A DNA stretch of 64,000 bases from positions 267 to 64,266 of the forward strand of contig CAZRYK010000002.1 of NCBI GenBank assembly GCA_964604315.1, in the 5' to 3' direction. Positions within the stretch are counted from its first letter, which is position 1, and the number at the start of each line of letters is the position of its first letter. This stretch comes from an uncultured Gammaproteobacteria bacterium. GTDB taxonomy: Bacteria > Patescibacteriota > Patescibacteriia > JACPL01 > CAZRYK01. Both the position numbers and the translations under genes were made by a program. Below are positions 7,330 to 61,790 of this stretch, in pieces. The notes under the pieces are model-generated. The model did no database searches and had not been told where the DNA came from. It saw only the letters and a list, made by a program, of their open reading frames with translations.

Positions 7330-7428
7330 GCTGTAAGTAGTAAGTAATAAGCGGTAAGTAAGGGGTAAGTAACCTTTAAGAAATACTTATTACTTACAGC
7401 TTACTACTTATTACTGCTTAATCGGCAT
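7330..7428. repeat. long imperfect hairpin built from GTAAGTA / TTACTTAC units (GTAAGTA-rich repeat family)
   Basis: gctgtaagtagtaagtaataagcggtaagtaaggggtaagtaacc ... tacttattacttacagcttactacttattactgctta. Arms are reverse-complementary with imperfections. Related copies occur at 19014-19110 and 60590-60660. Confidence 0.6.
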
Positions 7429-8517: not shown

Positions 8518-8738
8518 AAGATATAAGAAAGGTCTTTTTAATTAGTAGTAGTAATAAGCCCTGTGGAAACGCGGGATAAGCCGTTTTTGCGTGCAATGTA
8601 AGAGGTCTTTTTTGGGAAAACTCCTGCGCATGGATTCCGTATAGTCTGGGGATGATTTTGGCTTGTGTTTTTGTGCTGTGGAGAACGGCTATTTTGTTCA
8701 CAACTTCGCACGCTGTTCTCCCTTCCTTTTCCGCAACC

Positions 8739-8758
8739 TTATACACACATTATCCCCG
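8739..8758. promoter_or_regulatory. DnaA-box-like sequences (TTATACACA, TTATCCCCG) in the dnaA-dnaN intergenic region
   Basis: 8/9 and 7/9 matches to TTATCCACA, read directly from the sequence. Confidence 0.35.
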
Positions 8759-8777
8759 AAAAAGCGTTCGCGAAGCA

Positions 8778-10166: not shown

Positions 10167-10221
10167 AGTTTCCTTAGTTTTTTTACCAAAGGAATTATTG
10201 CGTGGAACTATCATAGCACAA

Positions 10222-10278
10222 TTATCCACAGGTGGAAATTTTATACCCATTGTGGATTTGTGTACATCTTGTGGATAA
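10222..10278. promoter_or_regulatory. cluster of DnaA boxes; oriC candidate upstream of dnaA
   Basis: Perfect TTATCCACA at 10222-10230, TGTGGAT at 10251-10257, and perfect TGTGGATAA (reverse complement) at 10270-10278. Confidence 0.6.
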
Positions 10279-10350
10279 GCTGTGTTTATGTTCTTTGGGT
10301 GTTTTTTCTTAACCCTTATCCCTTAAACCTTACGCCTTAATTTTAATACA

Positions 10351-10379
10351 TTGACCACAAGACCATAAACTTGTATACT
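10351..10379 (+). promoter_or_regulatory. sigma70-like promoter (TTGACC, 17-nt spacer, TATACT) for the rpmH-rnpA-yidD-yidC operon
   Basis: Hexamers and spacing read directly from the sequence. Confidence 0.45.
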
Positions 10380-10532
10380 AAAAACCGCTTTACTCAATTT
10401 TTTCAGCACTTTTCGCATTTGAGTGCAATTCGAGGCGCAGACGAGGAACGAAGTAAGCTGTACAGGAACGTACAGCGTCGAGTACCACAGTCTGCAACGA
10501 AGAAGTGTGCCAAAGGCGAAAGTGCTCATTTT

Positions 10533-10670
10533 ATGCCAAAACGAACGTATCAGCCAAAAAAGCGTACAAAAAAACGCGAACATGGGTTTCGAAAGCGCAT
10601 GGCAACCAGTAATGGCCGACGTGTTTTACGGAAACGCCGATCCAAGGGCCGCAAACGCTTAACGAGTTAA
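10533..10670 (+). CDS. rpmH: 50S ribosomal protein L34
   Basis: [45 protein letters not shown], a canonical 45-aa L34. The ORF-track frame extends upstream spuriously. Confidence 0.95.
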
Positions 10671-10677
10671 TCTTTCC

Positions 10678-11004
10678 ATGTTGCCCCGCAAACATCGCTT
10701 AGCTAAAGTTCGCGATTTTGCGCACCTTAAAGAGACGGGTAAAACTCGACGGACGCGATTTTTCACCGTAAGGTATACAAAAACCGAGCAAAAGGATTCG
10801 CGTGTGGCAGTGATTGTCTCGGCTAAGGTTAGCAAAAAGGCTGTTGAGCGCAATAAACTTAAGCGACGGTTGCGAAACATTCTTTCCAAACGATTGCGGG
10901 ACTTGCCCAAACACACCGATGTGGCGTTTTATGCCCACGGTTCCGCAAGCAAAGCGACATTCTCGGACATTGAAGCAGATATTGAACAACTTTTGAACGG
11001 CTAG
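10678..11004 (+). CDS. rnpA: ribonuclease P protein component
   Basis: Basic 108-aa protein directly after rpmH, in the conserved gene order. Confidence 0.85.
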   Translation: MLPRKHRLAKVRDFAHLKETGKTRRTRFFTVRYTKTEQKDSRVAVIVSAKVSKKAVERNKLKRRLRNILSKRLRDLPKHTDVAFYAHGSASKATFSDIEADIEQLLNG

Positions 11005-11006
11005 AG

Positions 11007-11255
11007 ATGCGTTTTATTCTCCTCTATCTTATACGGGCCTACCAAAAAACCCTTTCCCCGGATCATTCTTGGGTTGCGTTTTACTATCCTTTTGGAGTCT
11101 GCGCTTTTCGGCCAACGTGCTCGGAATATAGCTATGACGCGATTCTTGCCCATGGCGTATGGAAGGGTCTAGCCATGACGGCACACCGCGTTTTGCGCTG
11201 TCACCCGGGGGTAAAACCCACCTATGATCCCGTCACTTTAACAAAAAAATCCTAA
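11007..11255 (+). CDS. yidD: membrane protein insertion efficiency factor YidD
   Basis: CAFRPTCSEY motif, in the conserved position between rnpA and yidC. Confidence 0.85.
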   Translation: MRFILLYLIRAYQKTLSPDHSWVAFYYPFGVCAFRPTCSEYSYDAILAHGVWKGLAMTAHRVLRCHPGVKPTYDPVTLTKKS

Positions 11256-11256
11256 T

Positions 11257-12042
11257 ATGGGCGAATTTTTCAACACTATTCTTTACGAGCCGCTTTTTAA
11301 TGCCCTCATCTTTTTTTACGACGTGATTCCGGGTACAGACATGGGTATTGCCATTATTCTTCTGACGCTCATTATTAAATTATTGCTGTTCCAGCCGTCG
11401 CTATCGTCTTTAAAAGCGCAAAAATCCTTGCAAGATTTACAGCCAAAATTGCGCGAAGTTCAGGAAAAATATAAGGACAATCGTGAAGAGTTAGGCAAAA
11501 AAACCATTGAAGTTTACCGCACGCATAAGGTCAATCCGTTTTCTTCGTGCCTCCCTATTTTAATACAACTGCCGATTTTGTGGGTCTTGTACCGCGTGTT
11601 TTTTAATGGCATCGAGCTAGACGCAACGAGCGGGCTTTTAATGCCCAACCAAGTCGAGCATCTTTATGGCTATTTGCAGGCAAAATATGCTACACAGCCG
11701 ATTGATTCCACGTTTTTAGGCCTGGTGGATTTATCGGCGACCGGTAATGTTGTTTTGGCCGTTCTAGCCGGGGCTTTGCAGTTTTGGCAAACACGCATGT
11801 TACAGAGAACGCGGCCAAAAGTGCAGACCAAAGGCTCAAAGGACGAGGATTTGATGGCTAATATGAACCGGCAGATGCTCTACGTGATGCCGATTATTAC
11901 GGTCATTTTTGGCTATCAGTTTCCGGCCGGCCTTGCTTTATATTGGACGGTCAACATTTTGTATAGCATTGCCCAGCAATGGTTTTTCTTAAGAAAAGGC
12001 CATATTTCTGGACCTCCGCAAGAAAAACCCCAGACACCATAA
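11257..12042 (+). CDS. yidC: YidC/Oxa1-family membrane protein insertase (short form)
   Basis: Multi-TM 261-aa protein after yidD, in the conserved operon. Confidence 0.8.
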   Translation: MGEFFNTILYEPLFNALIFFYDVIPGTDMGIAIILLTLIIKLLLFQPSLSSLKAQKSLQDLQPKLREVQEKYKDNREELGKKTIEVYRTHKVNPFSSCLPILIQLPILWVLYRVFFNGIELDATSGLLMPNQVEHLYGYLQAKYATQPIDSTFLGLVDLSATGNVVLAVLAGALQFWQTRMLQRTRPKVQTKGSKDEDLMANMNRQMLYVMPIITVIFGYQFPAGLALYWTVNILYSIAQQWFFLRKGHISGPPQEKPQTP

Positions 12043-12785: not shown

Positions 12786-12812
12786 CACAAACTTTGCTCA
12801 CGCAAAGTTTGT

Positions 12813-12942
12813 GTAATGAGTAATTCGTAGTTGGCCTGCCCGCCATTGCCTGCGGCTTCAGGCCTTGGCAGGCGGGTACTTAGCGCAAGGTAAAATTTCC
12901 TTAAAATCATCTAAGCAAAGTTTACCCCCAACTACTCAATAC
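12813..12942. repeat. MITE-like element, copy 1 (TIR GTAATGAGTA...), carrying a nested 45-bp GC-rich A-type repeat
   Basis: The core TTAGCGCAAGGTAAAATTTCCTTAAAATCATCTAAGCAAAGTTTACCCCCAACTACTCAATAC is about 80% identical to 57331-57400. The inserted segment CCTGCCCGCCATTGCCTGCGGCTTCAGGCCTTGGCAGGCGGGTAC recurs at 13207-13251. Confidence 0.55.
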
Positions 12943-12954
12943 CCACACAAAGTA

Positions 12955-13030
12955 CAAAATGTTCCCCGTCCGCCATCGGCTCCGCCTTCAGGCGTGCCGG
13001 GCGGGCACATGGAACGTTTTGTACACTAAC
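12955..13030. repeat. B-type GC-rich repeat with terminal inverted repeats AAAATGTTCC / GGAACGTTTT, copy 1
   Basis: acaaaatgttccccgtccgccatcggctccgccttcaggcgtgccgggcgggcacatggaacgttttgt. Nearly identical to 13826-13895 and about 70% similar to the A-type repeat. Confidence 0.55.
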
Positions 13031-13083
13031 TAATGAATTCAATCAGTGATTGATACTAGGGTCGTAGCTTTACTGCGACAAGA

Positions 13084-13156
13084 GGGCCTGTAGCTCATCT
13101 GGTAGAGCGCGGCATTCGCATTGCCGAGGCAAGCGGTTCGAGTCCGCTCAGGTCCA
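13084..13156 (+). tRNA. tRNA-Ala (anticodon CGC)
   Basis: Cloverleaf with acceptor GGGCCTG/CAGGTCC including the G3:U70 alanine identity pair, anticodon loop TTCGCAT, and T-loop TTCGAGT. Confidence 0.8.
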
Positions 13157-13194
13157 CGTAAATTTTTGCTAGCGCAATAATTTGAGTCTCGCGT

Positions 13195-13290
13195 TGTTAG
13201 TAATTTGCCTGCCCGCCATTGCCTGCGGCTTCAGGCGTTGGCAGGCGGGTACTTTGCGCAATGAGTGTTCCACGTGGAACACTCCAGATA
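13195..13290. repeat. A-type GC-rich repeat, copy 2, followed by the perfect 18-bp palindrome GTGTTCCACGTGGAACAC
   Basis: CCTGCCCGCCATTGCCTGCGGCTTCAGGCGTTGGCAGGCGGGTAC matches 12835-12879 with one mismatch. The palindrome lies at 13269-13286. Confidence 0.55.
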
Positions 13291-13294
13291 AATT

Positions 13295-13669
13295 ATGGAT
13301 TACAGTATCGAAAAAATTCAGCAAATTGTTCGGGAATTTGCAAAGTCTAGAAATTGGGAAGATTACCCGAATATTGACAAATTCGACCATGTTCACGAGG
13401 AGCTTATTGAAGTAAGCCAGTATTTGCGGTATAAATCTCGTGAAGAAATGGAAGGATTTCTGTCTGACCCAAAGAATAAGGCGCTTATTGAGGAAGAAAT
13501 GGGCGATGTCCTATTTGTCTTTGCGCGCCTGGCTAATCAATTAAACATTGATTTGGGTAAAGGGTTTGAAACAACCGTAGCGAAAGTCCTAAAAAAGTTC
13601 CCTGAAACTGCAGGAAAAAGTGAGTACAATCCGGTTTGGAAAGGCGACAAGCCTGGAAATAAGGAATAA
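13295..13669 (+). CDS. MazG-like nucleotide pyrophosphohydrolase domain protein
   Basis: HEELIEV and EEEMGDVLF acidic EExxE motifs of the MazG/NTP-PPase fold. The gene is embedded in the tRNA/repeat cluster. Confidence 0.55.
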   Translation: MDYSIEKIQQIVREFAKSRNWEDYPNIDKFDHVHEELIEVSQYLRYKSREEMEGFLSDPKNKALIEEEMGDVLFVFARLANQLNIDLGKGFETTVAKVLKKFPETAGKSEYNPVWKGDKPGNKE

Positions 13670-13725
13670 GTTTCCAAAATGTTCCACCACGTACCATACG
13701 GTACATGGTTCCACGTGGAACATTT

Positions 13726-13799
13726 GGGCGGCTAGCTCAGCTGGTTAGAGCGTTGCATTCACATTGCAAAGGTCACAAGTTCGAATCTTGTGCCGCCCA
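13726..13799 (+). tRNA. tRNA-Val (anticodon CAC)
   Basis: Cloverleaf with acceptor GGGCGGC/GCCGCCC, anticodon stem-loop TTGCA-TTCACAT-TGCAA, and T-loop TTCGAAT. It is preceded by the palindrome GTTCCACGTGGAAC at 13709-13722. Confidence 0.8.
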
Positions 13800-13825
13800 C
13801 GTAAATTTTACTCACACAAATGACA

Positions 13826-13895
13826 AAATGTTCCCCGTCCGCCATCGGCTTCGCCTTCAGGCGTGCCGGGCGGGCACATGGAACATTTTATTGTA
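13826..13895. repeat. B-type GC-rich repeat, copy 2
   Basis: gacaaaatgttccccgtccgccatcggcttcgccttcaggcgtgccgggcgggcacatggaacatttta, near-identical to 12955-13030. Confidence 0.55.
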
Positions 13896-23564: not shown

Positions 23565-23584
23565 TAATAAAGTAAACGAACAAA

Positions 23585-23612
23585 GGGATCCGACCTCTGG
23601 AGGTCGGATCCC
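23585..23612 (+). terminator. REP-family hairpin GGGATCCGACCTC...GAGGTCGGATCCC after the large surface-protein gene
   Basis: Perfect inverted repeat containing GGATCCGACC, 20 nt after the stop codon. Confidence 0.6.
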
Positions 23613-23656
23613 TTCGCGAGATGCGTTGGCGTCTCGTTTTGTGGTATAATTGATAC

Positions 23657-24251: not shown

Positions 24252-24614
24252 ATGTATGACAAAAAATCCATTGGCCGCTTAGGCGAAGAATTGGCAGAAC
24301 GCTTTTTGCAACGCAAGGGCTACACGATTATAGAAAAAAACTTTCACACGCGGTTTGGAGAAATCGATATTGTGGCGCGCCAAAATTCTGCATTTATTTT
24401 TGTCGAGGTGAAAACGCGGACATCAACGTTCTTTGGTTCGCCGGAGGAATCCATTACGCCGTATAAACAAGAACGGTGGAAGAAAAGTGTCTGGGTCTAT
24501 TGCCAAACAAAAAACCTTCACCACAAACATTTGCAATTCGACGTGATTGCCATTTTACTCAACCGCGCAACCCGCACCGCCACTCTGCGACATTTTAAGA
24601 ATATTGAGATATGA
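24252..24614 (+). CDS. yraN: YraN-family (UPF0102) endonuclease
   Basis: GEELAERFLQRKGY...GEIDIVA...VEVKTR signature. The last 18 codons lie in a 52-bp sequence duplicated at 25830-25884. Confidence 0.8.
   Translation: MYDKKSIGRLGEELAERFLQRKGYTIIEKNFHTRFGEIDIVARQNSAFIFVEVKTRTSTFFGSPEESITPYKQERWKKSVWVYCQTKNLHHKHLQFDVIAILLNRATRTATLRHFKNIEI
24560..24614 (+). repeat. direct repeat copy 1 (AACCGCGCAACCCGCACCGCCACTCTGCGACATTTTAAGAATATTGAGATAT)
   Basis: 52-bp stretch identical to 25833-25884. A partial third copy (GACATTTTAAGAATATTGA) is at 30378-30396. Confidence 0.8.
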
Positions 24615-24701
24615 GAACCCTGCGTCTTTGTTTAGCATATTGACGTGTTCATCTAAATAGTATATAATTAGGGTAGTTAAATCACCTTATTAAATAAAAA
24701 T

Positions 24702-25826
24702 ATGGTTATTAAACGAGAAATTTACCCACGTATTCAAAAGGCGCTCTTTCGCAAGAAGGCCATTATCCTGTATGGAGCGCGGCAAGTCGGAAAAACCACA
24801 CTTCTTCGTGAAATAGAAAAACAGTACGGAGCGCGATCGCTTTACCTCAACTGCGATGAGCCGGATATTCGTTCACGACTCACCGAGAAAACATCGACCG
24901 AACTCAAAGCGTTTTTTGGCAAAGCTCGGCTCGTCTTAATTGATGAAGCGCAACGCGTGCGCGATATTGGCCTGACCATTAAACTGATTGTAGACACGCT
25001 TCCAGAGTATCAAATTGTTGCGAGCGGATCATCATCGTTTGAACTTTCCAATCGGGTGTCCGAGCCGCTTACGGGTCGTGCCTATGAGTTCCATTTGTAT
25101 CCTTTTTCGCTTTCCGAACTTCTCGCCGCTTCGAGTGATCTTGATGTTTTGCGTCTGCTCGAGCGGCGGATGATTGTTGGCATGTATCCCGAGATTGTTG
25201 TGAATGACCGGGCCGCTGAAAATCATCTTGCTTCCATCGCACAAAGTTATTTGTATAAGGATGTCCTTGAATATCACCAGATTAAAAAACCTGAAGCGTT
25301 GGAAAAATTATTGCAGGCGCTTGCGCTTCAAATCGGCTCAGAGGTTTCCTACTCCGAACTGGCAATGCTGGTTGGTGTGGAGAAACAAACCATTCAGCAG
25401 TACATTCATCTTCTTGAGCAAGCGTTTATTCTTTTTCGCCTCCCGCCATTCCGGCGTAATCTGCGAACCGAACTTCGAAAGTTACGAAAAATCTATTTTG
25501 TTGATGTTGGGGTGCGCAATGCGATTATCAAGAACATGAATCCGCTCAACATCAGGCAAGATGTTGGGGCGTTGTGGGAGAATTTCATTATGAGTGAACG
25601 CATGAAACGGAACGCAAATCGTGGCCGTTTTGTTAATGCGTACTTTTGGAGAACGCATGCGCAACAAGAGCTGGATTACCTTGAAGAAGAAGGCGGAGAA
25701 CTCCGCGCTTTCGAATTCAAATGGTCATCATCAAAGGTCCGAATTCCAAAAGCGTTTCGCGAGGCCTATCCGCAAAGCTCTGTTGACGTGGTCACAAAGG
25801 AGAATATTCTTGATTTTGTTCGTTAA
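24702..25826 (+). CDS. AAA+ ATPase (DUF4143-type C-terminal domain)
   Basis: Walker A GARQVGKTT, Walker B LVLIDEAQ, C-terminal region typical of the ATPase/DUF4143 family. The whole gene lies between 52-bp direct repeats. Confidence 0.75.
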   Translation: MVIKREIYPRIQKALFRKKAIILYGARQVGKTTLLREIEKQYGARSLYLNCDEPDIRSRLTEKTSTELKAFFGKARLVLIDEAQRVRDIGLTIKLIVDTLPEYQIVASGSSSFELSNRVSEPLTGRAYEFHLYPFSLSELLAASSDLDVLRLLERRMIVGMYPEIVVNDRAAENHLASIAQSYLYKDVLEYHQIKKPEALEKLLQALALQIGSEVSYSELAMLVGVEKQTIQQYIHLLEQAFILFRLPPFRRNLRTELRKLRKIYFVDVGVRNAIIKNMNPLNIRQDVGALWENFIMSERMKRNANRGRFVNAYFWRTHAQQELDYLEEEGGELRAFEFKWSSSKVRIPKAFREAYPQSSVDVVTKENILDFVR

Positions 25827-25829
25827 TCC

Positions 25830-25884
25830 CAACCGCGCAACCCGCACCGCCACTCTGCGACATTTTAAGAATATTGAGATATAA
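25830..25884 (+). repeat. direct repeat copy 2 (duplicate of the yraN 3' end)
   Basis: Identical 52 bp, including a pseudo C-terminal coding sequence ...NRATRTATLRHFKNIEI. Confidence 0.8.
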
Positions 25885-25889
25885 AGATT

Positions 25890-26627
25890 TCATGTCTTTT
25901 TCACTCCGTCCCATACCATTTCAAACACATAGCGGAACGTTTGGCTAAGGAGGTCACTCGTAATAACCGTTCCAAAAATCGGTTCTTTGAGCGTGATGAG
26001 CGCAATGTTGTTGTTCCAGACAAGAATATCTGTCGGAAAATCAGAATATTTTTCGGGGATAAGGCGAAAGTCATAAAGACCTTTCAGAATTTGTTGCGTT
26101 TGTTGTGTTCCCACTTGTTGCGATGGATTCGTAATCAAGTCTTGCAAAACCACATTCTTTTCTTTCATGGCCTTCTCCCATGCCAAAAAAAATTTAGGAT
26201 CGTTGTCTGTGAGATGTTTGGTGGACCCAAGTGCGAGAAGTTTTTCCGTGTTTGTGGCTTGCCAATAAATTTCCTTCACTTGTTCAAAACCGTCGTAAAA
26301 ACGAATTTTCGGTTTGTTTTTTTGTACAGTATAAAGCGCGCGCAAATCCGGCAGAATCCGCTCAACAGCTTCTTTCTTCTTTTGGACTGCGCGAAGTAGC
26401 GATTCAGGGTCGCTTGCAATATAGGCCTTGCGTTTGCCCTTTTCTTGTTCCTCAATTAGGCCGCCATTTTTCAGTGCATCGAGGATATTGTAGCAATTGG
26501 TGCGGGCAATACCAGTCCCGCGGGCAATTTGAGGGGGCGTGGAAAGCCCTTGTTCAAGAAGGTAAAGGTATACCTTAATCTCGGATTTGGTGAGGTTCAG
26601 TTCTTTTAATTGTTCCTCGATCGTCAT
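25890..26627 (-). CDS. TrmB-family transcriptional regulator (paralog 1)
   Basis: N-terminal wHTH (LTKSEIKVYLYLLEQGLSTPPQIARGTGIARTNCYNILDALKNGGLIEE) plus a C-terminal TrmB-like effector domain. Start at MTIEEQL. Confidence 0.75.
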   Translation of the reverse strand: MTIEEQLKELNLTKSEIKVYLYLLEQGLSTPPQIARGTGIARTNCYNILDALKNGGLIEEQEKGKRKAYIASDPESLLRAVQKKKEAVERILPDLRALYTVQKNKPKIRFYDGFEQVKEIYWQATNTEKLLALGSTKHLTDNDPKFFLAWEKAMKEKNVVLQDLITNPSQQVGTQQTQQILKGLYDFRLIPEKYSDFPTDILVWNNNIALITLKEPIFGTVITSDLLSQTFRYVFEMVWDGVKKT

Positions 26628-26926
26628 AAATAGTATGAATGTCAATTAGAAGTATATCATTAGATGACTAAGCAGTCAATAGATACTGCAAATAATATAG
26701 AAATATGATATATACACTATTGACTATTTGTCAAATGTATGGCATATTTTGCTACTCAAGATCGTGTGCTCGGCCGATGATGGACAACAAGCGCCCTTTG
26801 ACAACGTGGCAGAAGAGGAAGAGTACCGATTCAATCATCGGAAAGGCAATTTATTCAAACTGTTTGCGAACGCCTATTTTGGTTAGGCTTCGCTCTAATT
26901 ATCAAATTAATGATTAAGAAAAATCT

Positions 26927-30265: not shown

Positions 30266-30408
30266 AAATCTAAAAAGGTGGAGCGCCAGTTTTATTGGCA
30301 CGAAATTTGGCGGCAAAGGGTGCGCGAGCGGAATTGTGTAATTCCACGATGGTAACATGGAGGGAACCCCTACCGCCGTGACATTTTAAGAATATTGAAA
30401 TTAGATTA

Positions 30409-31143
30409 CTACGGCAAAGGCTTGGCTGATTTCCATGCCGCGTCAAAAAGCGCGCGCATTGTTCCGGTGATTGTGGCGTCTTCAATACGCACAACAAAAA
30501 GATTCCATTCATGAACACGGAAGAGGGCGACAACATTGCCATAGACGGCGTTGTCATTGAGAATATCGCCATTCAAGATTCGAGCTTCGTACGTTCGCCC
30601 AGCGGACAACGCAAAACGCTTGACACTGCGCTTCACGTCTGGGCGATTCGGCACTAACTCTACCGTACGAACCTGATTATGGCGAATCGCCTCTGCCATA
30701 CTCTGAATTTCTTTGGGGAAGATTTTTTCAATATCCGAGAGAGCAGACCAAAAACGCACCGCCGATGCCCGTTCGATTTCTTTATAAATCTGGCGCAAAC
30801 CCCCGCGGCCTTCAAAAACCGTAATGGATGGTTTTCCGGCTGTTTGATCGCGCAACCGAGACATTTCTTTTAGGGATTCTTGAAAGTCTGTGAGCTGGTC
30901 GCGCAACTTTTGCTCAATGCGGGTGGGGTCGCAAGCTTGATAATAGGTTCTTTTGCCAATAGGGACTTTTTCCAGCAGACCACAGGAAAGGAGCTCGTCG
31001 ATATGTTCATACACCGAGGATCGTTTTATGCCGCTTGCCGAGGCAATTTTTTGTATAGAGGCGATTCCTAGGGGGAGAGTTGCAAGATAAAGAGAGGCCG
31101 CGCGTTTACTCACCCCCAAGGATTGGATTATTTCATTGTGCAT
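30409..31143 (-). CDS. TrmB-family transcriptional regulator (paralog 2)
   Basis: wHTH LGVSKRAASLYLATLPLGIASIQKIASASGIKRSSVYEHIDELLSCGLLEK plus a TrmB-type C-terminal domain. Confidence 0.75.
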   Translation of the reverse strand: MHNEIIQSLGVSKRAASLYLATLPLGIASIQKIASASGIKRSSVYEHIDELLSCGLLEKVPIGKRTYYQACDPTRIEQKLRDQLTDFQESLKEMSRLRDQTAGKPSITVFEGRGGLRQIYKEIERASAVRFWSALSDIEKIFPKEIQSMAEAIRHNQVRTVELVPNRPDVKRSVKRFALSAGRTYEARILNGDILNDNAVYGNVVALFRVHEWNLFVVRIEDATITGTMRALFDAAWKSAKPLP

Positions 31144-36627: not shown

Positions 36628-36634
36628 TTTAAAA

Positions 36635-36677
36635 GGGATCCGACCTCTAGAGATCCGACCCCTCTGGGGGTCGGATC
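36635..36677. repeat. REP-family element flanking the transposase 3' end: GGGATCCGACC-TCTAGA-GATCCGACCCC-TCTG-GGGGTCGGATC
   Basis: Direct repeat of GATCCGACC plus an 11-bp perfect hairpin. The RAYT stop codon and last 9 codons lie inside it. Confidence 0.7.
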
Positions 36678-37267
36678 TTGTTTTTGGCATTTTGAAAAAA
36701 GTGAAGATAATCAGGTGGCTCATCGGCCGCAGTATAACGCGACAAAATATCAAAGATTATTTTTGTCTCTATCCATGGTTGTTGCTCGTGAATGTACGCA
36801 TGAATACTTGAATAGGGGTAGGTTAATGGATCCGCGCCAATGTCACGAGGGTTGAGATGAATGTATCGTGTTAAATGAAGAAGATATTCATCTGACGGGA
36901 CAAGAATTGCCTTATATTTCTTTCCGAAGAGCGAGCCATCATGTTGATATTTTTTCTTATAATAAATCGTGTAAGCAGAAATCAAAGATTGCATAAAATG
37001 TGGGAGTGCGCGTTCTTGAGTTTGTTGTAGGGCTATATGATAGTGATTTGGCATCAGAGAAAGACTAATAATTTTAATGAGTCCAAAAAAGTTTTTTCTG
37101 TAGAGCATGGCGTCTGGCTCTGGTTGTGTTACAGCAGATTTTAGGAGATGGTAAAACATTCGGAAATCTTCTTCGTCGCGACAGATGTCATTTTTATCGT
37201 AACCGCGATTAAAAACATGGTAATAGCCATCTTTAACAAATGATCGAATATGGTATTTACTTGGCAT
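36647..37267 (-). mobile_element. IS200-like Y1 HUH transposase gene (PF01797 fold), resembling REP-associated tyrosine transposases (RAYT)
   Basis: 206 aa with YHVFNRG near the N-terminus, the HUH motif in MPNHYHIAL, and the catalytic-Tyr region LTRYIHLNP. A single gene with no tnpB, bracketed by REP hairpins. Confidence 0.7.
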
Positions 37268-37333
37268 ATAAAAATAGGGCGTGTTCGTAGAACGCCCATA
37301 AAACTATATTAGCATGAAAGAATATTTGGTACA

Positions 37334-37361
37334 AGGGATCCGACCTCCAGAGGTCGGATCC
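37334..37361. repeat. REP-family hairpin GGGATCCGACCT-CCAG-AGGTCGGATCCC flanking the transposase 5' side
   Basis: Perfect 12-bp inverted repeat, 67 nt upstream of the RAYT start. Confidence 0.7.
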
Positions 37362-37439
37362 CTCTGGGATTTGTTTTTGGCCGCGGGGCGGGGGTTGGTA
37401 GGATTTCTCCACCTTCCCCCTCCCCGCGTTGCGGGCCGT

Positions 37440-42315: not shown

Positions 42316-43083
42316 ATGTCGAAAGATTTTGACACATTTATGCCCACCAATGCAAAAACCTTAGAACCATTAGGGCTTTCGGCCCAAGAAGCACAGGTAT
42401 ATTTGGCGTTGCTGAAAATCGGCGGAGCGCGGGCTAGCCGCATTGCGCGTGAAACCGGTTTTAAACGCACGACCGCCTATGCAATCTTAAAAAATCTTTC
42501 GCGCAAAGGCTTTGTCACGCTCTATTATCGTAAAAGTCAACAGTTTTATTATGCAGTAAAGCCTGCGCGGGTCGCGACGCTTTTTGAAAAAAAACTTAAC
42601 GCATTTACCACGCTTATTCCCACATTAGAATCCTTGGCTAAAAAAGAAACGCGCGATATGGGCTTGCGGTTTATTGAAACCAAACAAGAGCTCGAGGAAT
42701 TTTACCGTGGCGTTTTACAGGATTATCATAATCGTGCTTACCGGATTATTGGATCCGCGGCGGGTTGGGAAGGTTTAGATCCGGATTTCTTTATTCAGTT
42801 TCGTAAAGATCGCGCGGCGCATCGTATTCGAACCCGTCTCCTGCTCACCGCTGATTCTAAAAGCGTGAGCCCTAAAGCCAAAATTTTAAAACGCGATGTG
42901 CGATTCTTGTCGGAAAAATACCCTTTTCGTAGCACCATGGATATTTACGATGACAAAGTTTTAATTGTCAGCGCCGAGCTTTCCTCTCTTGCTGTGGTCA
43001 TCGAGATCCCTGCCATGGTCGACGTGTTTCAATCGATTTTCGAAATGCTCTGGGACGCAACACCTTCTAAAATTACGCGTTGA
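42316..43083 (+). CDS. TrmB-family transcriptional regulator (paralog 3)
   Basis: wHTH LSAQEAQVYLALLKIGGARASRIARETGFKRTTAYAILKNLSRKGFV plus a C-terminal TrmB-type domain. Confidence 0.75.
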   Translation: MSKDFDTFMPTNAKTLEPLGLSAQEAQVYLALLKIGGARASRIARETGFKRTTAYAILKNLSRKGFVTLYYRKSQQFYYAVKPARVATLFEKKLNAFTTLIPTLESLAKKETRDMGLRFIETKQELEEFYRGVLQDYHNRAYRIIGSAAGWEGLDPDFFIQFRKDRAAHRIRTRLLLTADSKSVSPKAKILKRDVRFLSEKYPFRSTMDIYDDKVLIVSAELSSLAVVIEIPAMVDVFQSIFEMLWDATPSKITR

Positions 43084-49544: not shown

Positions 49545-50333
49545 TTAAGGCTTCGACACCTGCCACAGTGCCTGAAACCAGACACGGTAGCTGTCGGCAA
49601 GAGCGCGGCTACGCAACACAAAGAACACGGCGTTGTCATCGATACGCAAAATGCGACAACCGGTATAGGTGACCACGTAATCACCAAAGACATTGATAAT
49701 GGAATCGGTGGAATATTGTTGTGGCAAAACACGATATTCTAATTCGCCCAGAAAATGTTTGGGGAAGTTGGGAATCTTTTGTACCGCTTCATAATTAAAA
49801 AGTTCAATAAACTTCATTTTCTTGCGGTTCGCCTCTTTAAAAAAGGATTTTGCTGATGTTTCCATGCGCGGGTCAAACCACGCCGCGTTTGCCCCTACCG
49901 CATAAACCGTTTCTTCCACACGTAAACAATCGCGCCACACATTTTTTTGCCCCTCCAACCCGCGGTAAATATACGCCTCTTCTGGTGACTGCTGTTTTTG
50001 GTATTTGGATTCCAGCTCGGGCATAATGCCTTGAATTTTCTGTTGCTTTTCTCCTAGGATTTCTAACAACTTTCCCGGATCTACTGGGCTGTATTTATTG
50101 TCTTTGCTGGAAAAAATAGGGAAGCATAACCCCTTGGCCACTAAACGCTCAATGGTGTCATAGGCGTTGCGTCGATTAATGCCGGTTTTAATCGAAATTT
50201 GGGGGACACTGGATTCGCCCAAATTCAATAATGCCTCATAGATTTTTGCTTCATTTGGGCTAAGACCAGCGGATTGTAAGATTTCTTGATACATATATGG
50301 TGGTGAATAACCATCAGTGGTTGCCTTTGCCAC
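49545..50333 (-). CDS. TrmB-family transcriptional regulator (paralog 4)
   Basis: wHTH LSPNEAKIYEALLNLGESSVPQISIKTGINRRNAYDTIERLVAKGL plus a TrmB-type C-terminal domain. Confidence 0.75.
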   Translation of the reverse strand: MAKATTDGYSPPYMYQEILQSAGLSPNEAKIYEALLNLGESSVPQISIKTGINRRNAYDTIERLVAKGLCFPIFSSKDNKYSPVDPGKLLEILGEKQQKIQGIMPELESKYQKQQSPEEAYIYRGLEGQKNVWRDCLRVEETVYAVGANAAWFDPRMETSAKSFFKEANRKKMKFIELFNYEAVQKIPNFPKHFLGELEYRVLPQQYSTDSIINVFGDYVVTYTGCRILRIDDNAVFFVLRSRALADSYRVWFQALWQVSKP

Positions 50334-54076: not shown

Positions 54077-54835
54077 TTATTTTCCCAATCGATCCCACAA
54101 AAGCTGGAAAATAATTTTTTGTAAATCCGCGAATTCTTTGGATTCAATAATCACGGCCATTTTTTCTTTCCATGACGCAATCAACATTTTATCGTTATAG
54201 ATTTTTACTTCTGGTGAAAAGGTGAGGGTTGGATCTGGTAAAAATTTTGTCTCGCGTAGTGCGTGGCGCTCCAGGGTGGCGCGCGCACGCGACACTTCGT
54301 TTTGTACAAAGATAGCGCGAATGGGAATTTTCTTTTTCGCTCGACGTTGAAAATACTCGGGGAAAAAGTTGGGTAATGTTTCGAGCATGGTTTGGACATT
54401 GGTATACGCTAACATTTTCCCTTTGCATGTTAGGGAGTCTTCATAAGCTTCACGCAAGCCCTTTTCTCCCTCATAGAATTGAACTTTTGGCCGTGTGGTG
54501 TGGAAGTTTTGCAAAGATAAAAATTCTGGCAGCACATTTTCCATTAATTTTTTCTGCTTTTGGAAGCTGCGCTCTTTTTCGCGTGCCTCGCGCTCTAAAT
54601 AATGAATGAGCTCTCGCGGATCAAGCGCTTGAAAATGCGTTTTTGCGCCTTTTTTGTATTTACTCACCACACCCCGATGGATAAGAGATTCAAGAATATC
54701 ATAGACAGTTGCGCGGATATATTGCGTGTGTTTGGCAAGTTGTGCCGCGGTGGCATCGCCTAAAGTAATAAGGGCAAGGTAGATGTTGGATTCTTTATCC
54801 GAGAACCCAATAGCTCGAAGTGTTTGGTGAAGCAT
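54077..54835 (-). CDS. TrmB-family transcriptional regulator (paralog 5)
   Basis: wHTH FSDKESNIYLALITLGDATAAQLAKHTQYIRATVYDILESLIHRGVV plus a TrmB-type C-terminal domain. Confidence 0.75.
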   Translation of the reverse strand: MLHQTLRAIGFSDKESNIYLALITLGDATAAQLAKHTQYIRATVYDILESLIHRGVVSKYKKGAKTHFQALDPRELIHYLEREAREKERSFQKQKKLMENVLPEFLSLQNFHTTRPKVQFYEGEKGLREAYEDSLTCKGKMLAYTNVQTMLETLPNFFPEYFQRRAKKKIPIRAIFVQNEVSRARATLERHALRETKFLPDPTLTFSPEVKIYNDKMLIASWKEKMAVIIESKEFADLQKIIFQLLWDRLGK

Positions 54836-57322: not shown

Positions 57323-57417
57323 AGTAATGAGTACTTAGCGCAAGGTAGAATTTTTTAAAATCATCTAGCAAAGTTTTCCCCAAACTACCAACTACTAATT
57401 ACGAACTACTCATTACT
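57323..57417. repeat. MITE-like element, copy 2, with terminal inverted repeats AGTAATGAGTA / TACTCATTACT
   Basis: Core about 80% identical to 12880-12942. Like copy 1 it abuts a tRNA gene and an AAACTTTGC...GCAAAGTTT hairpin. Confidence 0.55.
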
Positions 57418-59554: not shown

Positions 59555-59588
59555 GGATCCGACCCTGGCACGTATTTGGGTCGGATCC
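59555..59588. repeat. REP-family hairpin GGATCCGACCC-(12 nt)-GGGTCGGATCC
   Basis: Perfect 11-bp inverted repeat downstream of secG. Confidence 0.6.
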
Positions 59589-59688
59589 TGATTGCTGGTT
59601 TATTCTTCAATTGCCCCCGGGGCAACATTTGAAAAAAATGCACATAGGTATATAATTCCTTCAGATTATACTTCTTTGTAATCACTGC

Positions 59689-60480
59689 ATGTCTCGTCTT
59701 CAACTTCAAACACAGGTCAAGCCTGCCACGCGTATTGCGCAAGGAATAAATATCATCACTAGAGGGGTAGCAGGGCTTTCTATTCCGCTTGTTGCCCAAG
59801 CATCGCTTGCGCCAGCTTCAATAGCGATGGCGACGCGCTTCGCGTACGTTTTACAAGTATTTGCGATTCTGCTGTTTCTCGCCTCTCTTTTTCTTCTTAT
59901 TCGGATCATCATCAAAAGAAACGGTCTCGTTAAAAAGGTTCATCGCTCCTGGGTGATTGTCATGGTCGCTGCATTCATAGGATCGCTTCTTTTTTATGGA
60001 ATACCTATGACGGATTTCTATTGGAATTTGTTTGAAAAGATTTATCTCGATAGGAGTGAGCAAAGGAATCAAGAAGAGACACAAACGCAGAAAATAAATC
60101 TTGAACAAATGTCAAAAAATATTCCAGAAGGTTGGAATTATGCTATTGATGACACAGATGTGGTAGATTATTGTGATCAAAAAGCGAGTTTCTCTGTTCA
60201 GTTTCGATATCCAAAGATAGAATGCACAACACAGGAAAAATCTGGCCCATGGACTCATCACCCCCTATTCACGCTCTACTATTACGACAAGTTTAGCGCG
60301 CAAGATTGGGAGAAACATAATGATTGCGCCAAAAATTTGCGCAAGTTCCCAATCGCGGCTGCCGCGCCAATACCATTTGCGGAATCCGATGAATACACAA
60401 TCATGTCGTATTCGGGCAACCCTTGTTCAGAAAAAGATACCTCTGAAATCGAAGAGTATCTTCAAAAATATTACCAGTGA
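59689..60480 (+). CDS. hypothetical membrane protein
   Basis: Two or three TM helices, then a Cys-containing soluble domain. No recognisable motif. Confidence 0.4.
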   Translation: MSRLQLQTQVKPATRIAQGINIITRGVAGLSIPLVAQASLAPASIAMATRFAYVLQVFAILLFLASLFLLIRIIIKRNGLVKKVHRSWVIVMVAAFIGSLLFYGIPMTDFYWNLFEKIYLDRSEQRNQEETQTQKINLEQMSKNIPEGWNYAIDDTDVVDYCDQKASFSVQFRYPKIECTTQEKSGPWTHHPLFTLYYYDKFSAQDWEKHNDCAKNLRKFPIAAAAPIPFAESDEYTIMSYSGNPCSEKDTSEIEEYLQKYYQ

Positions 60481-60563: not shown

Positions 60564-60589
60564 TGTGCCAAGCTAAGCTTAGAACAAGA
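60564..60589 (+). repeat. 26-bp direct repeat TGTGCCAAGCTAAGCTTAGAACAAGA, left copy
   Basis: Identical to 61765-61790. Together the copies bracket the two-gene module at 60723-61777. Confidence 0.8.
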
Positions 60590-60722
60590 CTCGGGTCAGT
60601 TGTAAGTAATAAGGGTTAAGGGGTAAGTATTTTCTCCTATCTCACGTATCTTATCCCTTAAACCTTACTGCCCGTTGACAAAGGAAATTATATAGTATAT
60701 AATTCATACTATATTATATACT

Positions 60723-61487
60723 ATGAAATCTGATACCTTACAGTGCTTAAAAGGCCTGATTCAAGAAACGCCAGGAATCCGGCCGAAAGACATTCTCCAA
60801 CATTTTAGCTTTCAGCCAACGGGTATTTTTAAGCATCTCAAGCATCTACAGACAGAGCGCGTGATTTATAAAATTGGCAGACCGCCAGAAGTACGATACT
60901 ATACCTATGCCTCTATGGAAAATGTTTCTCATCTGCTTAACAACGCCATCAATTGGGCAATGTCTGGAGACGAACGTTGGGCGCCGCCCGACGCGCTTTC
61001 CTCTACACGAGACGTGTTTCAGGCGCGGGCTGACCATCTTGTGTATGAGCTTCAACAGCGTCTGAATAATCAAGATGTTGCCTTTTTGATTGTTGCTGTC
61101 GTGGGAGAAATTGGGAACAATTCGTTCGATCACAACCTTGGTCATTGGCGTGATACAACGGGGGTTTATTTTCACAACGATAGCGCCACACGCGAAATCG
61201 TCTTGGCAGACCGTGGCCAAGGTGTTTTTGCGACGATTAAACGCGTTAAGCCAGAGGTAAAAAACGATGCCGATGCGCTACGTGTCGCGTTTACAGAAAG
61301 AATCTCTGGCCGCGCGCCAGAAAAACGCGGGAATGGTTTAAAGTTCGTTAAAAAGGTCATCACCGAACAGAGTCTTTGTTTGCATTATTATACGGGTGAC
61401 GCGATGGCGGAAATTTCAGCATCAAAATTCACCATCAAGCCATCACCCATTAACGTTCCCGGAACAGTTGCTTATCTTAAATTTTAA
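60723..61487 (+). CDS. wHTH-fused GHKL (histidine-kinase-like) ATPase; RsbW/SpoIIAB-like ATP-binding core with an N-terminal DNA-binding domain
   Basis: N-terminal wHTH (PKDILQHFSFQPTGIFKHLKHLQTERVIYKIG). GHKL N-box VGEIGNNSFDHN, G1 ADRGQGV, G2 GNGLKFV. Confidence 0.6.
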   Translation: MKSDTLQCLKGLIQETPGIRPKDILQHFSFQPTGIFKHLKHLQTERVIYKIGRPPEVRYYTYASMENVSHLLNNAINWAMSGDERWAPPDALSSTRDVFQARADHLVYELQQRLNNQDVAFLIVAVVGEIGNNSFDHNLGHWRDTTGVYFHNDSATREIVLADRGQGVFATIKRVKPEVKNDADALRVAFTERISGRAPEKRGNGLKFVKKVITEQSLCLHYYTGDAMAEISASKFTIKPSPINVPGTVAYLKF

Positions 61488-61489
61488 TT

Positions 61490-61777
61490 ATGAAAATTGA
61501 ACTCAAAAAATTCGGCACCATGCTTACTTCGCGCCCGGCGGGTAAGGAAGCTTATCTCGCGGCGAAAGCCTACAGTTTGCCGAAAGAAAAAAATGAAGTG
61601 ATTGAAGTGGATTTTTCTGGGGTCGATGTCTTGGCGCCTTCTTGGGCCGACGAATTTTTAACGCCACTTTTTTCCGAATATCCCGGAAGGGTTATACTGT
61701 TGTCGTTCAAAAACGCGACGGTAAAGGCAACCTTAGAGGTCATCGGTCTTCCTAAGACGCTACCTGTGCCAAGCTAA
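61490..61777 (+). CDS. small STAS-like protein (DUF4325-like; anti-sigma-antagonist-fold candidate), partner of the GHKL ATPase
   Basis: 95 aa with VIEVDFSGVDVLAPSWADEFLTPLF, typical of STAS-like small domains. Its start is 3 nt after the upstream stop. The right direct-repeat copy lies in its last codons. Confidence 0.5.
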   Translation: MKIELKKFGTMLTSRPAGKEAYLAAKAYSLPKEKNEVIEVDFSGVDVLAPSWADEFLTPLFSEYPGRVILLSFKNATVKATLEVIGLPKTLPVPS

Positions 61778-61790
61778 GCTTAGAACAAGA
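61765..61790 (+). repeat. 26-bp direct repeat TGTGCCAAGCTAAGCTTAGAACAAGA, right copy
   Basis: Exact duplicate of 60564-60589. Confidence 0.8.

What the first reader, a model, noticed from the sequence alone, without database searches (positions are those of the whole stretch)
60564..61790. Two-gene module (wHTH-fused GHKL ATPase + STAS-like small protein) bracketed by exact 26-bp direct repeats, next to a UvrD helicase
The 254-aa protein carries a recognisable GHKL/Bergerat ATP-binding fold of the anti-sigma-factor-kinase type (N, G1 and G2 boxes present), fused to an N-terminal winged helix. Its translationally coupled 95-aa partner looks like a STAS/DUF4325-type small domain. This resembles a partner-switching pair (RsbW/RsbV-like) whose kinase has acquired a DNA-binding head, an architecture I do not recognise from characterised systems. 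Exact 26-bp direct repeats (TGTGCCAAGCTAAGCTTAGAACAAGA) at both borders suggest the pair arrived as a cassette. Candidate compact regulatory or conflict/defence module.
Basis: partly seen in the sequence, partly recalled or inferred. Interest (0 to 1): 0.6.

Follow-up and report, generated by a model that had tools for sequence, protein, structure and literature searches.

The report
HTH-fused serine kinase plus STAS partner
This is a small two-gene switch, common in Patescibacteria (the tiny-genome bacteria also called CPR), made of a DNA-binding protein kinase and its likely phosphorylation target; it is an uncharacterised relative of the CapK/CapS and VapK/VapS kinase–substrate pairs described in 2026, and here it sits between two identical 26-base repeats whose origin could not be settled.

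Summary
Exact 26-bp direct repeats lie at 60564-60589 and 61765-61790. They bracket a 254-aa and a 95-aa gene separated by 2 nt.

The domain calls are right.

The pair is a conserved Patescibacteria operon and is not exotic. I found 5042 kinase homologues. In all 8 distinct loci where the downstream DNA could be read, the STAS gene follows the kinase gene. Each locus has its own consensus promoter overlapped by a palindrome.

The closest characterised relatives are VapK/VapS and CapK/CapS (EMBO J 2026). VapS is itself a DUF4325 protein. This version differs in three ways: the kinase has no internal STAS domain, the only DNA-binding domain is on the kinase, and there is no effector gene.

Most likely it is an autoregulated phospho-switch transcription regulator.

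I found no support for a defence role. The cassette idea is only partly supported. The repeats are real and unique, and a second gene in the window is bracketed by 53-bp repeats. But I found no empty site, no recombinase and no compositional shift.

The parts
60564..60589 (+). Direct repeat, copy 1 (26 bp, exact). It lies 84 nt after the stop of the upstream 263-aa gene. It contains an imperfect dyad, TTGTGCCAAGCT-A-AGCTTAGAACAA, counting the two bases before it.
   Evidence: The repeat does not fold better than shuffled sequence.
60610..60667 (+). Inverted repeat (hairpin) with 17-18 nt arms and a 22-nt loop, between repeat copy 1 and the promoter. Function unknown. No T-run follows it. The 19-nt CTTATCCCTTAAACCTTAC ending its right arm (60649-60667) recurs upstream of dnaA at 10314-10332.
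   Evidence: DNA fold -11.1 kcal/mol, z -3.57.
60675..60703 (+). Promoter with a perfect sigma-70 consensus: TTGACA, 17 nt, TATAAT (12 of 12). The same layout occurs upstream of the pair in related loci.
   Evidence: conserved in L001, L004 and L005 and in L008, L017 and L020.
60692..60724 (.). Putative operator: perfect 12-bp inverted repeat ATAGTATATAAT - 9 nt - ATTATATACTAT. The left arm covers the -10 box and the right arm reaches the start codon.
   Evidence: Six of the seven related loci have an equivalent inverted repeat over the -10 box, with different arm sequences that stay complementary (for example L017 ATAGTGTATA/TATACACTAT, L020 TTTATAGTTTA/TAAACTATAAA). In the seventh, L018, the repeats lie farther upstream.
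60723..61487 (+). Gene for the 254-aa winged-helix-fused GHKL serine-kinase-like protein. wHTH: about residues 1-62 (60723-60908). Two-helix linker with invariant W78, R96, D97, R102: residues 63-115. GHKL domain: about residues 116-254 (61068-61484).
61490..61777 (+). Gene for the 95-aa DUF4325 STAS-fold protein. It has an invariant P50-S51-W52-x-D54-E55-F56 motif at the start of helix 2. Homologues are usually 88 aa. Residues 91-95 are modelled as disordered, and the last four residues (92-95) are encoded by repeat copy 2.
61765..61790 (+). Direct repeat, copy 2 (26 bp, exact). It overlaps the last four codons and the stop of the STAS gene and lies 70 nt upstream of the uvrD start codon.
   Evidence: Homology to related cassettes ends about 13 nt before it.

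Best explanation
The two genes form a self-contained kinase-substrate regulatory operon of a Patescibacteria (CPR) bacterium.

Shown:
- The large protein is a winged-helix DNA-binding head joined by a two-helix linker to a SpoIIAB/RsbW-type GHKL domain with intact ATP-binding boxes.
- The small protein is a STAS-fold DUF4325 protein, the same Pfam family as VapS. It has an invariant serine at the N-terminus of helix 2, where SpoIIAA, CapS and VapS are phosphorylated.
- The pair is always adjacent, 1-4 nt apart.
- Each pair has its own consensus promoter, overlapped by an inverted repeat whose arms change between genomes but stay complementary.

Inferred:
- The kinase binds this operator as a dimer through its wHTH and represses its own operon, and possibly other promoters.
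- The unphosphorylated STAS protein docks on the GHKL domain and is phosphorylated on Ser51.
- Docking or phosphorylation changes the DNA binding of the kinase, so the output is transcription rather than sigma-factor release. The signal is unknown.
- In this genome the operon probably entered the intergenic region upstream of uvrD by a recombination event that left the 26-bp site duplicated. That step is not demonstrated.

For: Motifs: the N, G1 and G2 boxes are invariant in 43 sequences.

Homology to a characterised system: VapS is DUF4325 (E 2.7e-17). The kinase profile against VapK gives hhalign probability 89%, E 2.3e-6 over 130 columns and 19 bits by hmmsearch. The STAS profile against VapS gives E 2.5e-4. 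The published mechanism of CapK/CapS and VapK/VapS is in PMC13373217.

Pairing: both genes are adjacent in all 8 distinct loci with readable downstream DNA.

Operator. The wHTH is the fastest-evolving part and STAS the slowest: mean identity 45%, 56% and 67% for wHTH, linker+GHKL and STAS. This fits a head that co-evolves with its operator. The DNA-binding head is swapped for a MerR HTH in some relatives (P0295, L016). This argues that a DNA-binding head plus this kinase is the functional unit.

Repeats.
Against: No biochemistry exists for this branch. Kinase activity, Ser51 phosphorylation and DNA binding are all inferred.
- Pfam HATPase_c_2 is below threshold.
- Ser51 aligns one residue after VapS Ser48 (ASP versus APS).
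- About 190-aa relatives lack the wHTH altogether, so DNA binding is not universal in the wider family.
- In CapK, deleting the N-terminal HTH had no measurable effect.
- The kinase lacks the STAS domain that forms CapK's ssDNA-binding groove, so the published signal cannot simply be transferred.
- The inverted repeat is AT-rich and overlaps the -10 box, so part of its conservation is promoter conservation.
- For the insertion step: no empty site was found, no recombinase lies in the insert, GC content equals that of the flanks, and three related loci lack flanking repeats.
Confidence: 0.55

Rival explanations
1. Classical partner switching. The GHKL protein is an anti-sigma factor that sequesters a sigma factor encoded elsewhere. 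The STAS protein is its antagonist. The wHTH only tethers or autoregulates.
For: The best structural matches are SpoIIAB, RsbW and UsfX for the kinase, and SpoIIAA and RsbV for the partner. The serine sits at the canonical position.
Against: No sigma-factor gene or PP2C (SpoIIE/RsbU-type) phosphatase gene lies next to the pair in any of 8 contexts. None was seen among 30 window proteins scanned. The sequence-level relatives are VapK/VapS, which do not act on sigma factors (PMC13373217).
Confidence: 0.1
2. A stress or defence sensor of the CapKS/VapKSC kind. [quoted passage not shown] The phosphorylated STAS protein then releases a toxin or effector encoded elsewhere, or the pair controls neighbouring genes such as uvrD.
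For: Homology to VapK/VapS. CapK is activated by ssDNA made during nucleotide-excision repair, and here the pair lies directly upstream of uvrD. Some related loci have toxin-antitoxin or modification genes within 5 kb: PemK/PhdYeFM in L001, HEPN/nucleotidyltransferase in L005, N6_N4 methyltransferase in L018, AAA_14/DUF4143 in L017. One HTH-swapped homologue lies beside a prophage serine recombinase.
Against: No conserved third gene or downstream effector operon appears in 8 contexts. Neither protein hits PADLOC. There are no phage or plasmid hits. The partner lacks the C-terminal inhibitory helix of VapS and the wHTH of CapS. The kinase lacks the STAS domain that forms the ssDNA groove. The partner is unusually conserved (67% mean identity), unlike fast-evolving defence proteins. 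The uvrD adjacency is seen only in this genome.
Confidence: 0.15
3. The STAS protein is the real output. It binds a conserved cellular target encoded elsewhere, and phosphorylation releases it. The wHTH serves only to autoregulate the operon.
For: The partner is the most conserved component: 24 invariant positions of 95, and 67% mean identity against 56% and 45% for the kinase domains. That suggests constraints beyond the kinase interface. VapS works this way on VapC.
Against: No candidate target is genetically linked. The partner is a bare 88-aa STAS domain without an extra interaction module.
Confidence: 0.15
4. The 26-bp repeats are not insertion borders. They are two copies of a dyad-symmetric protein-binding site or some other local duplication, and the operon is ancestral at this position.
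For: The 26-mer contains an imperfect palindrome with 10 of 12 positions matching (and the sequence itself). GC content does not differ from the flanks. There is no recombinase and no empty site. Other family members have no flanking repeats.
Against: Homology to related cassettes stops about 13 nt before copy 2 and near the promoter on the left. The pair occupies unrelated neighbourhoods in other genomes. A second gene in the same window (24702-25826) is bracketed by an exact 53-bp repeat that duplicates the 3' end of the upstream gene, the classic signature of an insertion. The about 91% identical relative L022 is not syntenic beyond 59604.
Confidence: 0.3

Closest known systems
VapK-VapS-VapC (vapKSC) toxin-antitoxin-like anti-phage system, Chambers et al., EMBO J 2026 (PMC13373217)
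   Same: The small protein belongs to the same Pfam family, DUF4325 (VapS E 2.7e-17; window protein E 2.9e-8). The GHKL domains align (hhalign probability 89%, E 2.3e-6) and share the N-box signature E-x3-N-x2-[D/E]-H. Both have a conserved serine at the start of STAS helix 2. The gene order is kinase then STAS, tightly coupled.
   Different: There is no VapC/PIN gene in any of the 8 contexts. The partner ends at about 88 aa and lacks VapS's C-terminal inhibitory helix. The kinase has an N-terminal wHTH and a two-helix linker where VapK has a STAS domain. The serine is shifted by one residue in the alignment. The distribution is Patescibacteria rather than Proteobacteria.
CapK-CapS regulators of immune operons (same paper)
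   Same: An anti-sigma-kinase-like GHKL kinase carrying an N-terminal HTH is paired with a STAS substrate. Palindromic operators lie in the pair's own promoter. The logic is autoregulatory.
   Different: CapK is HTH-STAS-GHKL (368 aa). CapS carries the wHTH and is the repressor. Here the only DNA-binding domain is on the kinase, and the partner is a bare STAS domain. Sequence similarity to CapK and CapS is not significant. There is no downstream immune operon.
SpoIIAB/SpoIIAA and RsbW/RsbV partner-switching modules
   Same: These are the best structural matches for both proteins. The GHKL boxes and the serine position are the same.
   Different: No linked sigma factor or PP2C phosphatase. The kinase is fused to a DNA-binding domain. 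Sequence similarity is below Pfam thresholds.
SiaB-SiaC (Pseudomonas aeruginosa)
   Different: SiaC is a DUF1987 protein, not DUF4325. The system works with the SiaA phosphatase and the SiaD cyclase. It has no HTH.

Membership tests
Pfam DUF4325 (STAS-like) | Score above the Pfam gathering threshold | tested here: met
   33.8 bits against a cut-off of 23, E 2.9e-8. Most homologues carry a precomputed PF14213 assignment.
Pfam HATPase_c_2 / GHKL superfamily | Profile score above threshold | tested here: not met
   16.7 bits against a cut-off of 27.4. Distant relatives also fall below threshold.
Pfam HATPase_c_2 / GHKL superfamily | Bergerat fold with N, G1 and G2 boxes | tested here: met
Partner-switching module (SpoIIAB/AA, RsbW/V) | STAS antagonist with a phosphorylatable Ser/Thr at the N-terminus of helix 2 | tested here: met
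   STAS fold. Invariant S51 at the start of helix 50-63. Phosphorylation itself was not tested.
Partner-switching module (SpoIIAB/AA, RsbW/V) | Cognate sigma factor bound by the kinase | tested here: not met
   Tested by gene context only. No sigma-factor gene lies next to the pair in 8 loci. Protein binding cannot be tested here.
Partner-switching module (SpoIIAB/AA, RsbW/V) | PP2C-type phosphatase that resets the STAS protein | tested here: inconclusive
   None is adjacent, and none was found among 30 window proteins scanned. The rest of the genome was not available.
CapK-CapS | Kinase architecture HTH-STAS-GHKL | tested here: not met
   The model shows wHTH (1-62), two helices (70-81, 96-113) and then GHKL, with no STAS domain. 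CapK similarity is not significant.
CapK-CapS | Substrate architecture STAS-wHTH (DNA-binding repressor) | tested here: not met
   The partner is a bare STAS domain of 88-95 aa.
CapK-CapS | Located immediately upstream of an immune operon | tested here: not met
   Downstream genes are uvrD, a tRNA and PemK, ileS, TrmB-family genes and others.
VapKSC | DUF4325-type VapS paired with a related GHKL kinase | tested here: met
VapKSC | VapC (PIN) toxin as third gene, and a C-terminal inhibitory helix on VapS | tested here: not met
   No PIN gene is adjacent in 8 loci. The partner ends right after the STAS domain.
Mobile gene cassette / integrated element | Flanking direct repeats unique to the borders | tested here: met
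   Exact 26-mer, present only twice in 64 kb and absent from related loci.
Mobile gene cassette / integrated element | Empty site with a single repeat copy in a relative | tested here: inconclusive
   The 26-mer gave 0 hits in genome, metagenome and viral collections. The upstream gene is an ORFan. The nearest relative, L022, diverges at 59604, before the site.
Mobile gene cassette / integrated element | Recombinase or transposase in or next to the insert | tested here: not met
   The insert holds only the two genes. The nearest transposase-like gene (Y1_Tnp, 36647-37267) is 23 kb away.
Mobile gene cassette / integrated element | Composition different from the flanks | tested here: not met
   GC is 0.44-0.48 inside and outside the insert.

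The most novel reading that the evidence does not exclude
In genome-reduced Patescibacteria, an anti-sigma-type serine kinase has itself become the transcription factor. The wHTH-GHKL protein with its bare STAS partner would then be a complete one-operon signal-transduction switch: sensor, kinase, substrate and DNA-binding output. It could be one of the main stress or DNA-damage regulators of this radiation. It could also spread between genomes as a promoter-carrying cassette inserted by an undescribed mechanism that leaves long (26-53 bp) target duplications.
Probability: 0.15. Interest if true: 0.75.

Novelty: new variant of a known kind. Interest (0 to 1): 0.45.

Why it matters
Patescibacteria have very small genomes and few recognisable regulators, and almost nothing is known about how they sense stress. 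A two-gene kinase-STAS operon found in thousands of their genomes is a concrete, testable candidate regulator. It also extends the newly described CapK/VapK kinase-substrate principle to a third wiring, in which the DNA-binding head sits on the kinase and no effector gene is attached. That would show how the same phospho-switch has been re-plugged into different outputs. Separately, two inserts in one 64-kb window are bracketed by exact 26-bp and 53-bp repeats and contain no recombinase. This hints at an insertion process in these genomes that deserves a systematic look.

Tried and rejected
**Searches for an empty site**
- The 26-mer was scanned in genome contigs, metagenome contigs and viral contigs, and a 20-nt core in viral contigs. 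All returned nothing.
- The upstream 263-aa protein was used to find syntenic relatives in genome and metagenome contigs and in the 5.8-billion protein set. It found only itself.
- An exact look-up of UvrD is not on record.
- A SecG look-up found a relative at about 91% identity, but synteny ends before the site.

**Readings considered and rejected**
- The repeat as a terminator or structured RNA: it folds no better than shuffled sequence, and Rfam finds nothing.
- The repeat as a common genomic motif: there are only two copies.
- A Xer/dif-type site: I saw no resemblance to the dif consensus I recall. This rests on memory and was not tested.
- An IS200/IS605-type insertion by the Y1 transposase at 36.6 kb: by established knowledge those elements make no target duplication.
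- The N-terminal domain as a Z-DNA-binding Zalpha domain: the best PDB sequence hits are Zalpha (E about 7e-5), but the Z-DNA-contacting Asn and Tyr of helix 3 are Phe36 and Lys40 here. I therefore treat it as an ordinary winged helix.
- TrmB genes as a third component: they recur near the pair (L008, L018, L020), but the window alone has five TrmB paralogs and none matches the kinase or STAS profiles. The association may only reflect their abundance.

**Not attempted**
- Modelling the kinase-STAS complex, because the structure tool takes single chains only.

Full report
**1. The observation**

The sequence is as described. TGTGCCAAGCTAAGCTTAGAACAAGA occurs at 60564-60589 and 61765-61790. It occurs nowhere else in the window, even with mismatches, and none is expected by chance.

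Between the copies lie these features:
- a strong inverted repeat at 60610-60667 (z -3.6)
- a perfect sigma-70 consensus promoter at 60675-60703
- a 254-aa ORF (60723-61487)
- two bases later, a 95-aa ORF (61490-61777)

Copy 2 of the repeat encodes the last four residues and the stop of the small ORF.

An independent assembly from run SRR12113422 reproduces the whole arrangement. Two further runs reproduce the left junction. It is therefore not an artefact of one assembly.

**2. The proteins**

*Sequence profiles.* Sequence profiles confirm only part of the domain picture. Pfam places the small protein in DUF4325 (E 2.9e-8) but scores the large one below threshold for HATPase_c_2. PADLOC and NCBIfam give nothing.

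**3. Distribution**

The kinase has 5042 homologues at E <= 1e-3 in the 90%-clustered protein set. Those listed are nearly all 251-262 aa. The ones that carry names come from Candidatus Magasanikbacteria, Uhrbacteria or unclassified Patescibacteria. A full HMM search finds 1015 clusters at 50% identity.

In the 8 distinct loci where the downstream DNA could be read, the STAS gene follows the kinase gene 1-4 nt later. The window has one copy of each.

The neighbours differ from genome to genome:
- rpiB and ileS
- holA and a TrmB-domain gene
- a tRNA-Gly and a PemK/PhdYeFM pair
- PEP-utilizer genes
- AAA_14/DUF4143 genes
- here, an ORFan membrane protein and uvrD

The pair is absent from the phage and plasmid collections. 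It is nearly absent from IMG/VR: one HTH-swapped kinase homologue lies beside a prophage serine recombinase, and the partner gives no hit.

**4. Regulatory DNA**

Upstream of the pair, seven of the eight loci have TTGACA, 17-18 nt, then a TATAAT-like box. In those seven, an inverted repeat has its left arm over the -10 box and its right arm running towards or into the start codon. In L018 the repeats lie farther upstream.
- window: ATAGTATATAAT-9-ATTATATACTAT
- L017: ATAGTGTATA-13-TATACACTAT
- L020: TTTATAGTTTA-10-TAAACTATAAA
- L005: TGTATAGT-16-ACTATACA

The arms differ between genomes but remain complementary. The left arm lies upstream of the likely transcription start, so this is a DNA site rather than an RNA hairpin.

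Across the eight loci the wHTH is the fastest-evolving part (45% mean identity). The linker plus GHKL is intermediate (56%), and the STAS partner is the slowest (67%). This pattern fits a DNA-binding head that tracks its own operator and a partner under strong constraint.

**5. Relation to known systems**

A full-text search led to Chambers et al., EMBO J 2026 (PMC13373217).
- CapK (HTH-STAS-GHKL) phosphorylates a conserved serine on helix 2 of CapS (STAS-wHTH). This dissociates the CapS repressor dimer. [quoted passage not shown]
- In the related VapKSC system, VapK phosphorylates VapS, a STAS domain with a short tail. This releases the VapC toxin.

I recovered the VapK, VapS, CapK and CapS sequences from the paper's supplementary files.
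- VapS is a DUF4325 protein (E 2.7e-17). An older classification had noted that one VapC group is coupled to DUF4325 genes (PMC5499597).
- The kinase profile aligns with the VapK GHKL domain (hhalign probability 89%, E 2.3e-6). The two share the N-box signature E-x3-N-x2-[D/E]-H.
- The STAS profile aligns with VapS (E 2.5e-4).
- Similarity to CapK and CapS is not significant.

The pair is thus a homologue of the VapK/VapS kinase-substrate core, with different accessories:
- no STAS domain in the kinase
- a wHTH on the kinase, or a MerR HTH in some relatives
- no tail or wHTH on the partner
- no effector gene

No paper in the library describes this Patescibacteria form.

**6. Mechanism**

What is shown: the folds, the motifs, the invariant serine, the strict pairing, and the promoter with its palindrome.

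What is inferred:
- The kinase dimer binds the palindrome through its wHTH and represses its own operon, and perhaps other promoters.
- The STAS protein docks on the GHKL domain and is phosphorylated on Ser51.
- Docking or phosphorylation switches DNA binding.

The signal is unknown. The ssDNA groove of CapK cannot exist here in the same form. The invariant W78, R96, D97, R102 and W142 are candidate ligand-binding residues.

Three rivals remain open at lower probability:
- a true anti-sigma function
- a defence-type sensor with an effector encoded elsewhere
- a conserved cellular target of the STAS protein

**7. The repeats**

*For an insertion:*
- The repeats are exact and unique.
- Homology with related operons ends close to both copies.
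- The operon sits in unrelated places in other genomes.
- The closest available relative (about 91% identity) loses synteny at 59604, just left of this region.
- The same window holds a second insert of the same design. An exact 53-bp repeat (24560-24612 and 25830-25882) brackets a promoter plus one AAA_14/DUF4143 gene. Its first copy is the 3' end of a YraN-like ORF, which the duplication keeps intact.

*Against:*
- No empty site could be found.
- Neither insert contains a recombinase.
- GC content is unremarkable.
- Three related loci lack flanking repeats.

Repeats of 26 and 53 bp are too long for ordinary transposon target duplications. They look more like shared attachment cores or short-homology recombination, but this remains open.

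**8. Verdict**

The object is a widespread, uncharacterised Patescibacteria variant of a kinase-STAS switch whose first members were characterised in 2026. It is a new variant of a known kind, of moderate interest. The defence reading is unsupported. The cassette reading is plausible but unproven.

Noticed in passing
window 24560-25882: A second insert bracketed by long exact repeats. A 53-bp direct repeat (24560-24612 and 25830-25882) flanks a promoter plus a single AAA_14/DUF4143 ATPase gene (24702-25826). Copy 1 is the 3' end of a YraN-like ORF (24254-24613). The insert's promoter carries the same 12-mer, ATAGTATATAAT, as the -10 box and operator arm of the finding. A degraded third copy of the repeat's 3' part lies at 30380-30401 next to a TrmB gene.
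   Followed up: partly
window 23580-23618, 36630-36668, 37330-37368, 59555-59588: REP-like palindromes (GGATCCGACC...GGTCGGATCC). Two of them flank a 206-aa Y1_Tnp (IS200/RAYT-like) gene at 36647-37267. The one at 59555-59588 sits just inside the point (59604) where synteny with the about 91% identical relative L022 ends.
   Followed up: partly
window 25890-26645, 30409-31143, 42316-43083, 49545-50333, 54077-54835: Five paralogous TrmB-family wHTH genes of about 245-260 aa in 64 kb. TrmB genes also lie next to the kinase-STAS pair in L008, L018 and L020. L022 has a TrmB gene where the window has the 263-aa ORFan, and L022 lacks the 54077-54835 copy.
   Followed up: partly
window 10314-10332 and 60649-60667: An identical 19-nt sequence, CTTATCCCTTAAACCTTAC, occurs in the dnaA-upstream region (which has DnaA-box-like TTATCCACA motifs nearby) and in the right arm of the hairpin just inside repeat copy 1. 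Roughly 0.02 such matches are expected by chance.
   Followed up: no
window 12808-13889: Two families of GC-rich repeats of about 81 nt (85-94% identical) follow the tRNA-Arg, tRNA-Ala and tRNA-Val genes. A 30-nt piece recurs at 57331-57360 next to tRNA-Leu.
   Followed up: no
window 59689-60480: The 263-aa gene upstream of the finding is an ORFan, probably a membrane protein. Among 5.8 billion proteins it matches only itself, and it has no relatives in the genome or metagenome contig collections.
   Followed up: yes
window 60723-60908 (residues 1-62 of the kinase): The best PDB sequence matches of the wHTH are Z-DNA-binding Zalpha domains (fish PKZ, cyprinid herpesvirus ORF112; E about 7e-5), including a G-x-P-P wing motif. 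The Z-DNA-contacting Asn and Tyr of helix 3 are Phe36 and Lys40 here.
   Followed up: partly
L016 4083-6606 (IMG/VR UViG_3300022555_001665): A prophage fragment with small and large terminase genes and a large serine recombinase. Directly beside the recombinase lies a 255-aa homologue in which a MerR-type HTH replaces the winged helix in front of the same GHKL domain. The contig ends before any partner gene could be seen.
   Followed up: partly
L021 2-1048: In a close relative (partner 84% identical), the kinase gene is called as two overlapping ORFs of 130 and 132 aa ahead of an intact DUF4325 gene. This may be a frameshifted or decaying kinase.
   Followed up: no
window 7411-12042: dnaN (7411-8517), a probable dnaA (8778-10250, not scanned) and yidC (11257-12042), with DnaA-box-like motifs at about 10250-10285. 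The window therefore probably includes the replication origin region.
   Followed up: no
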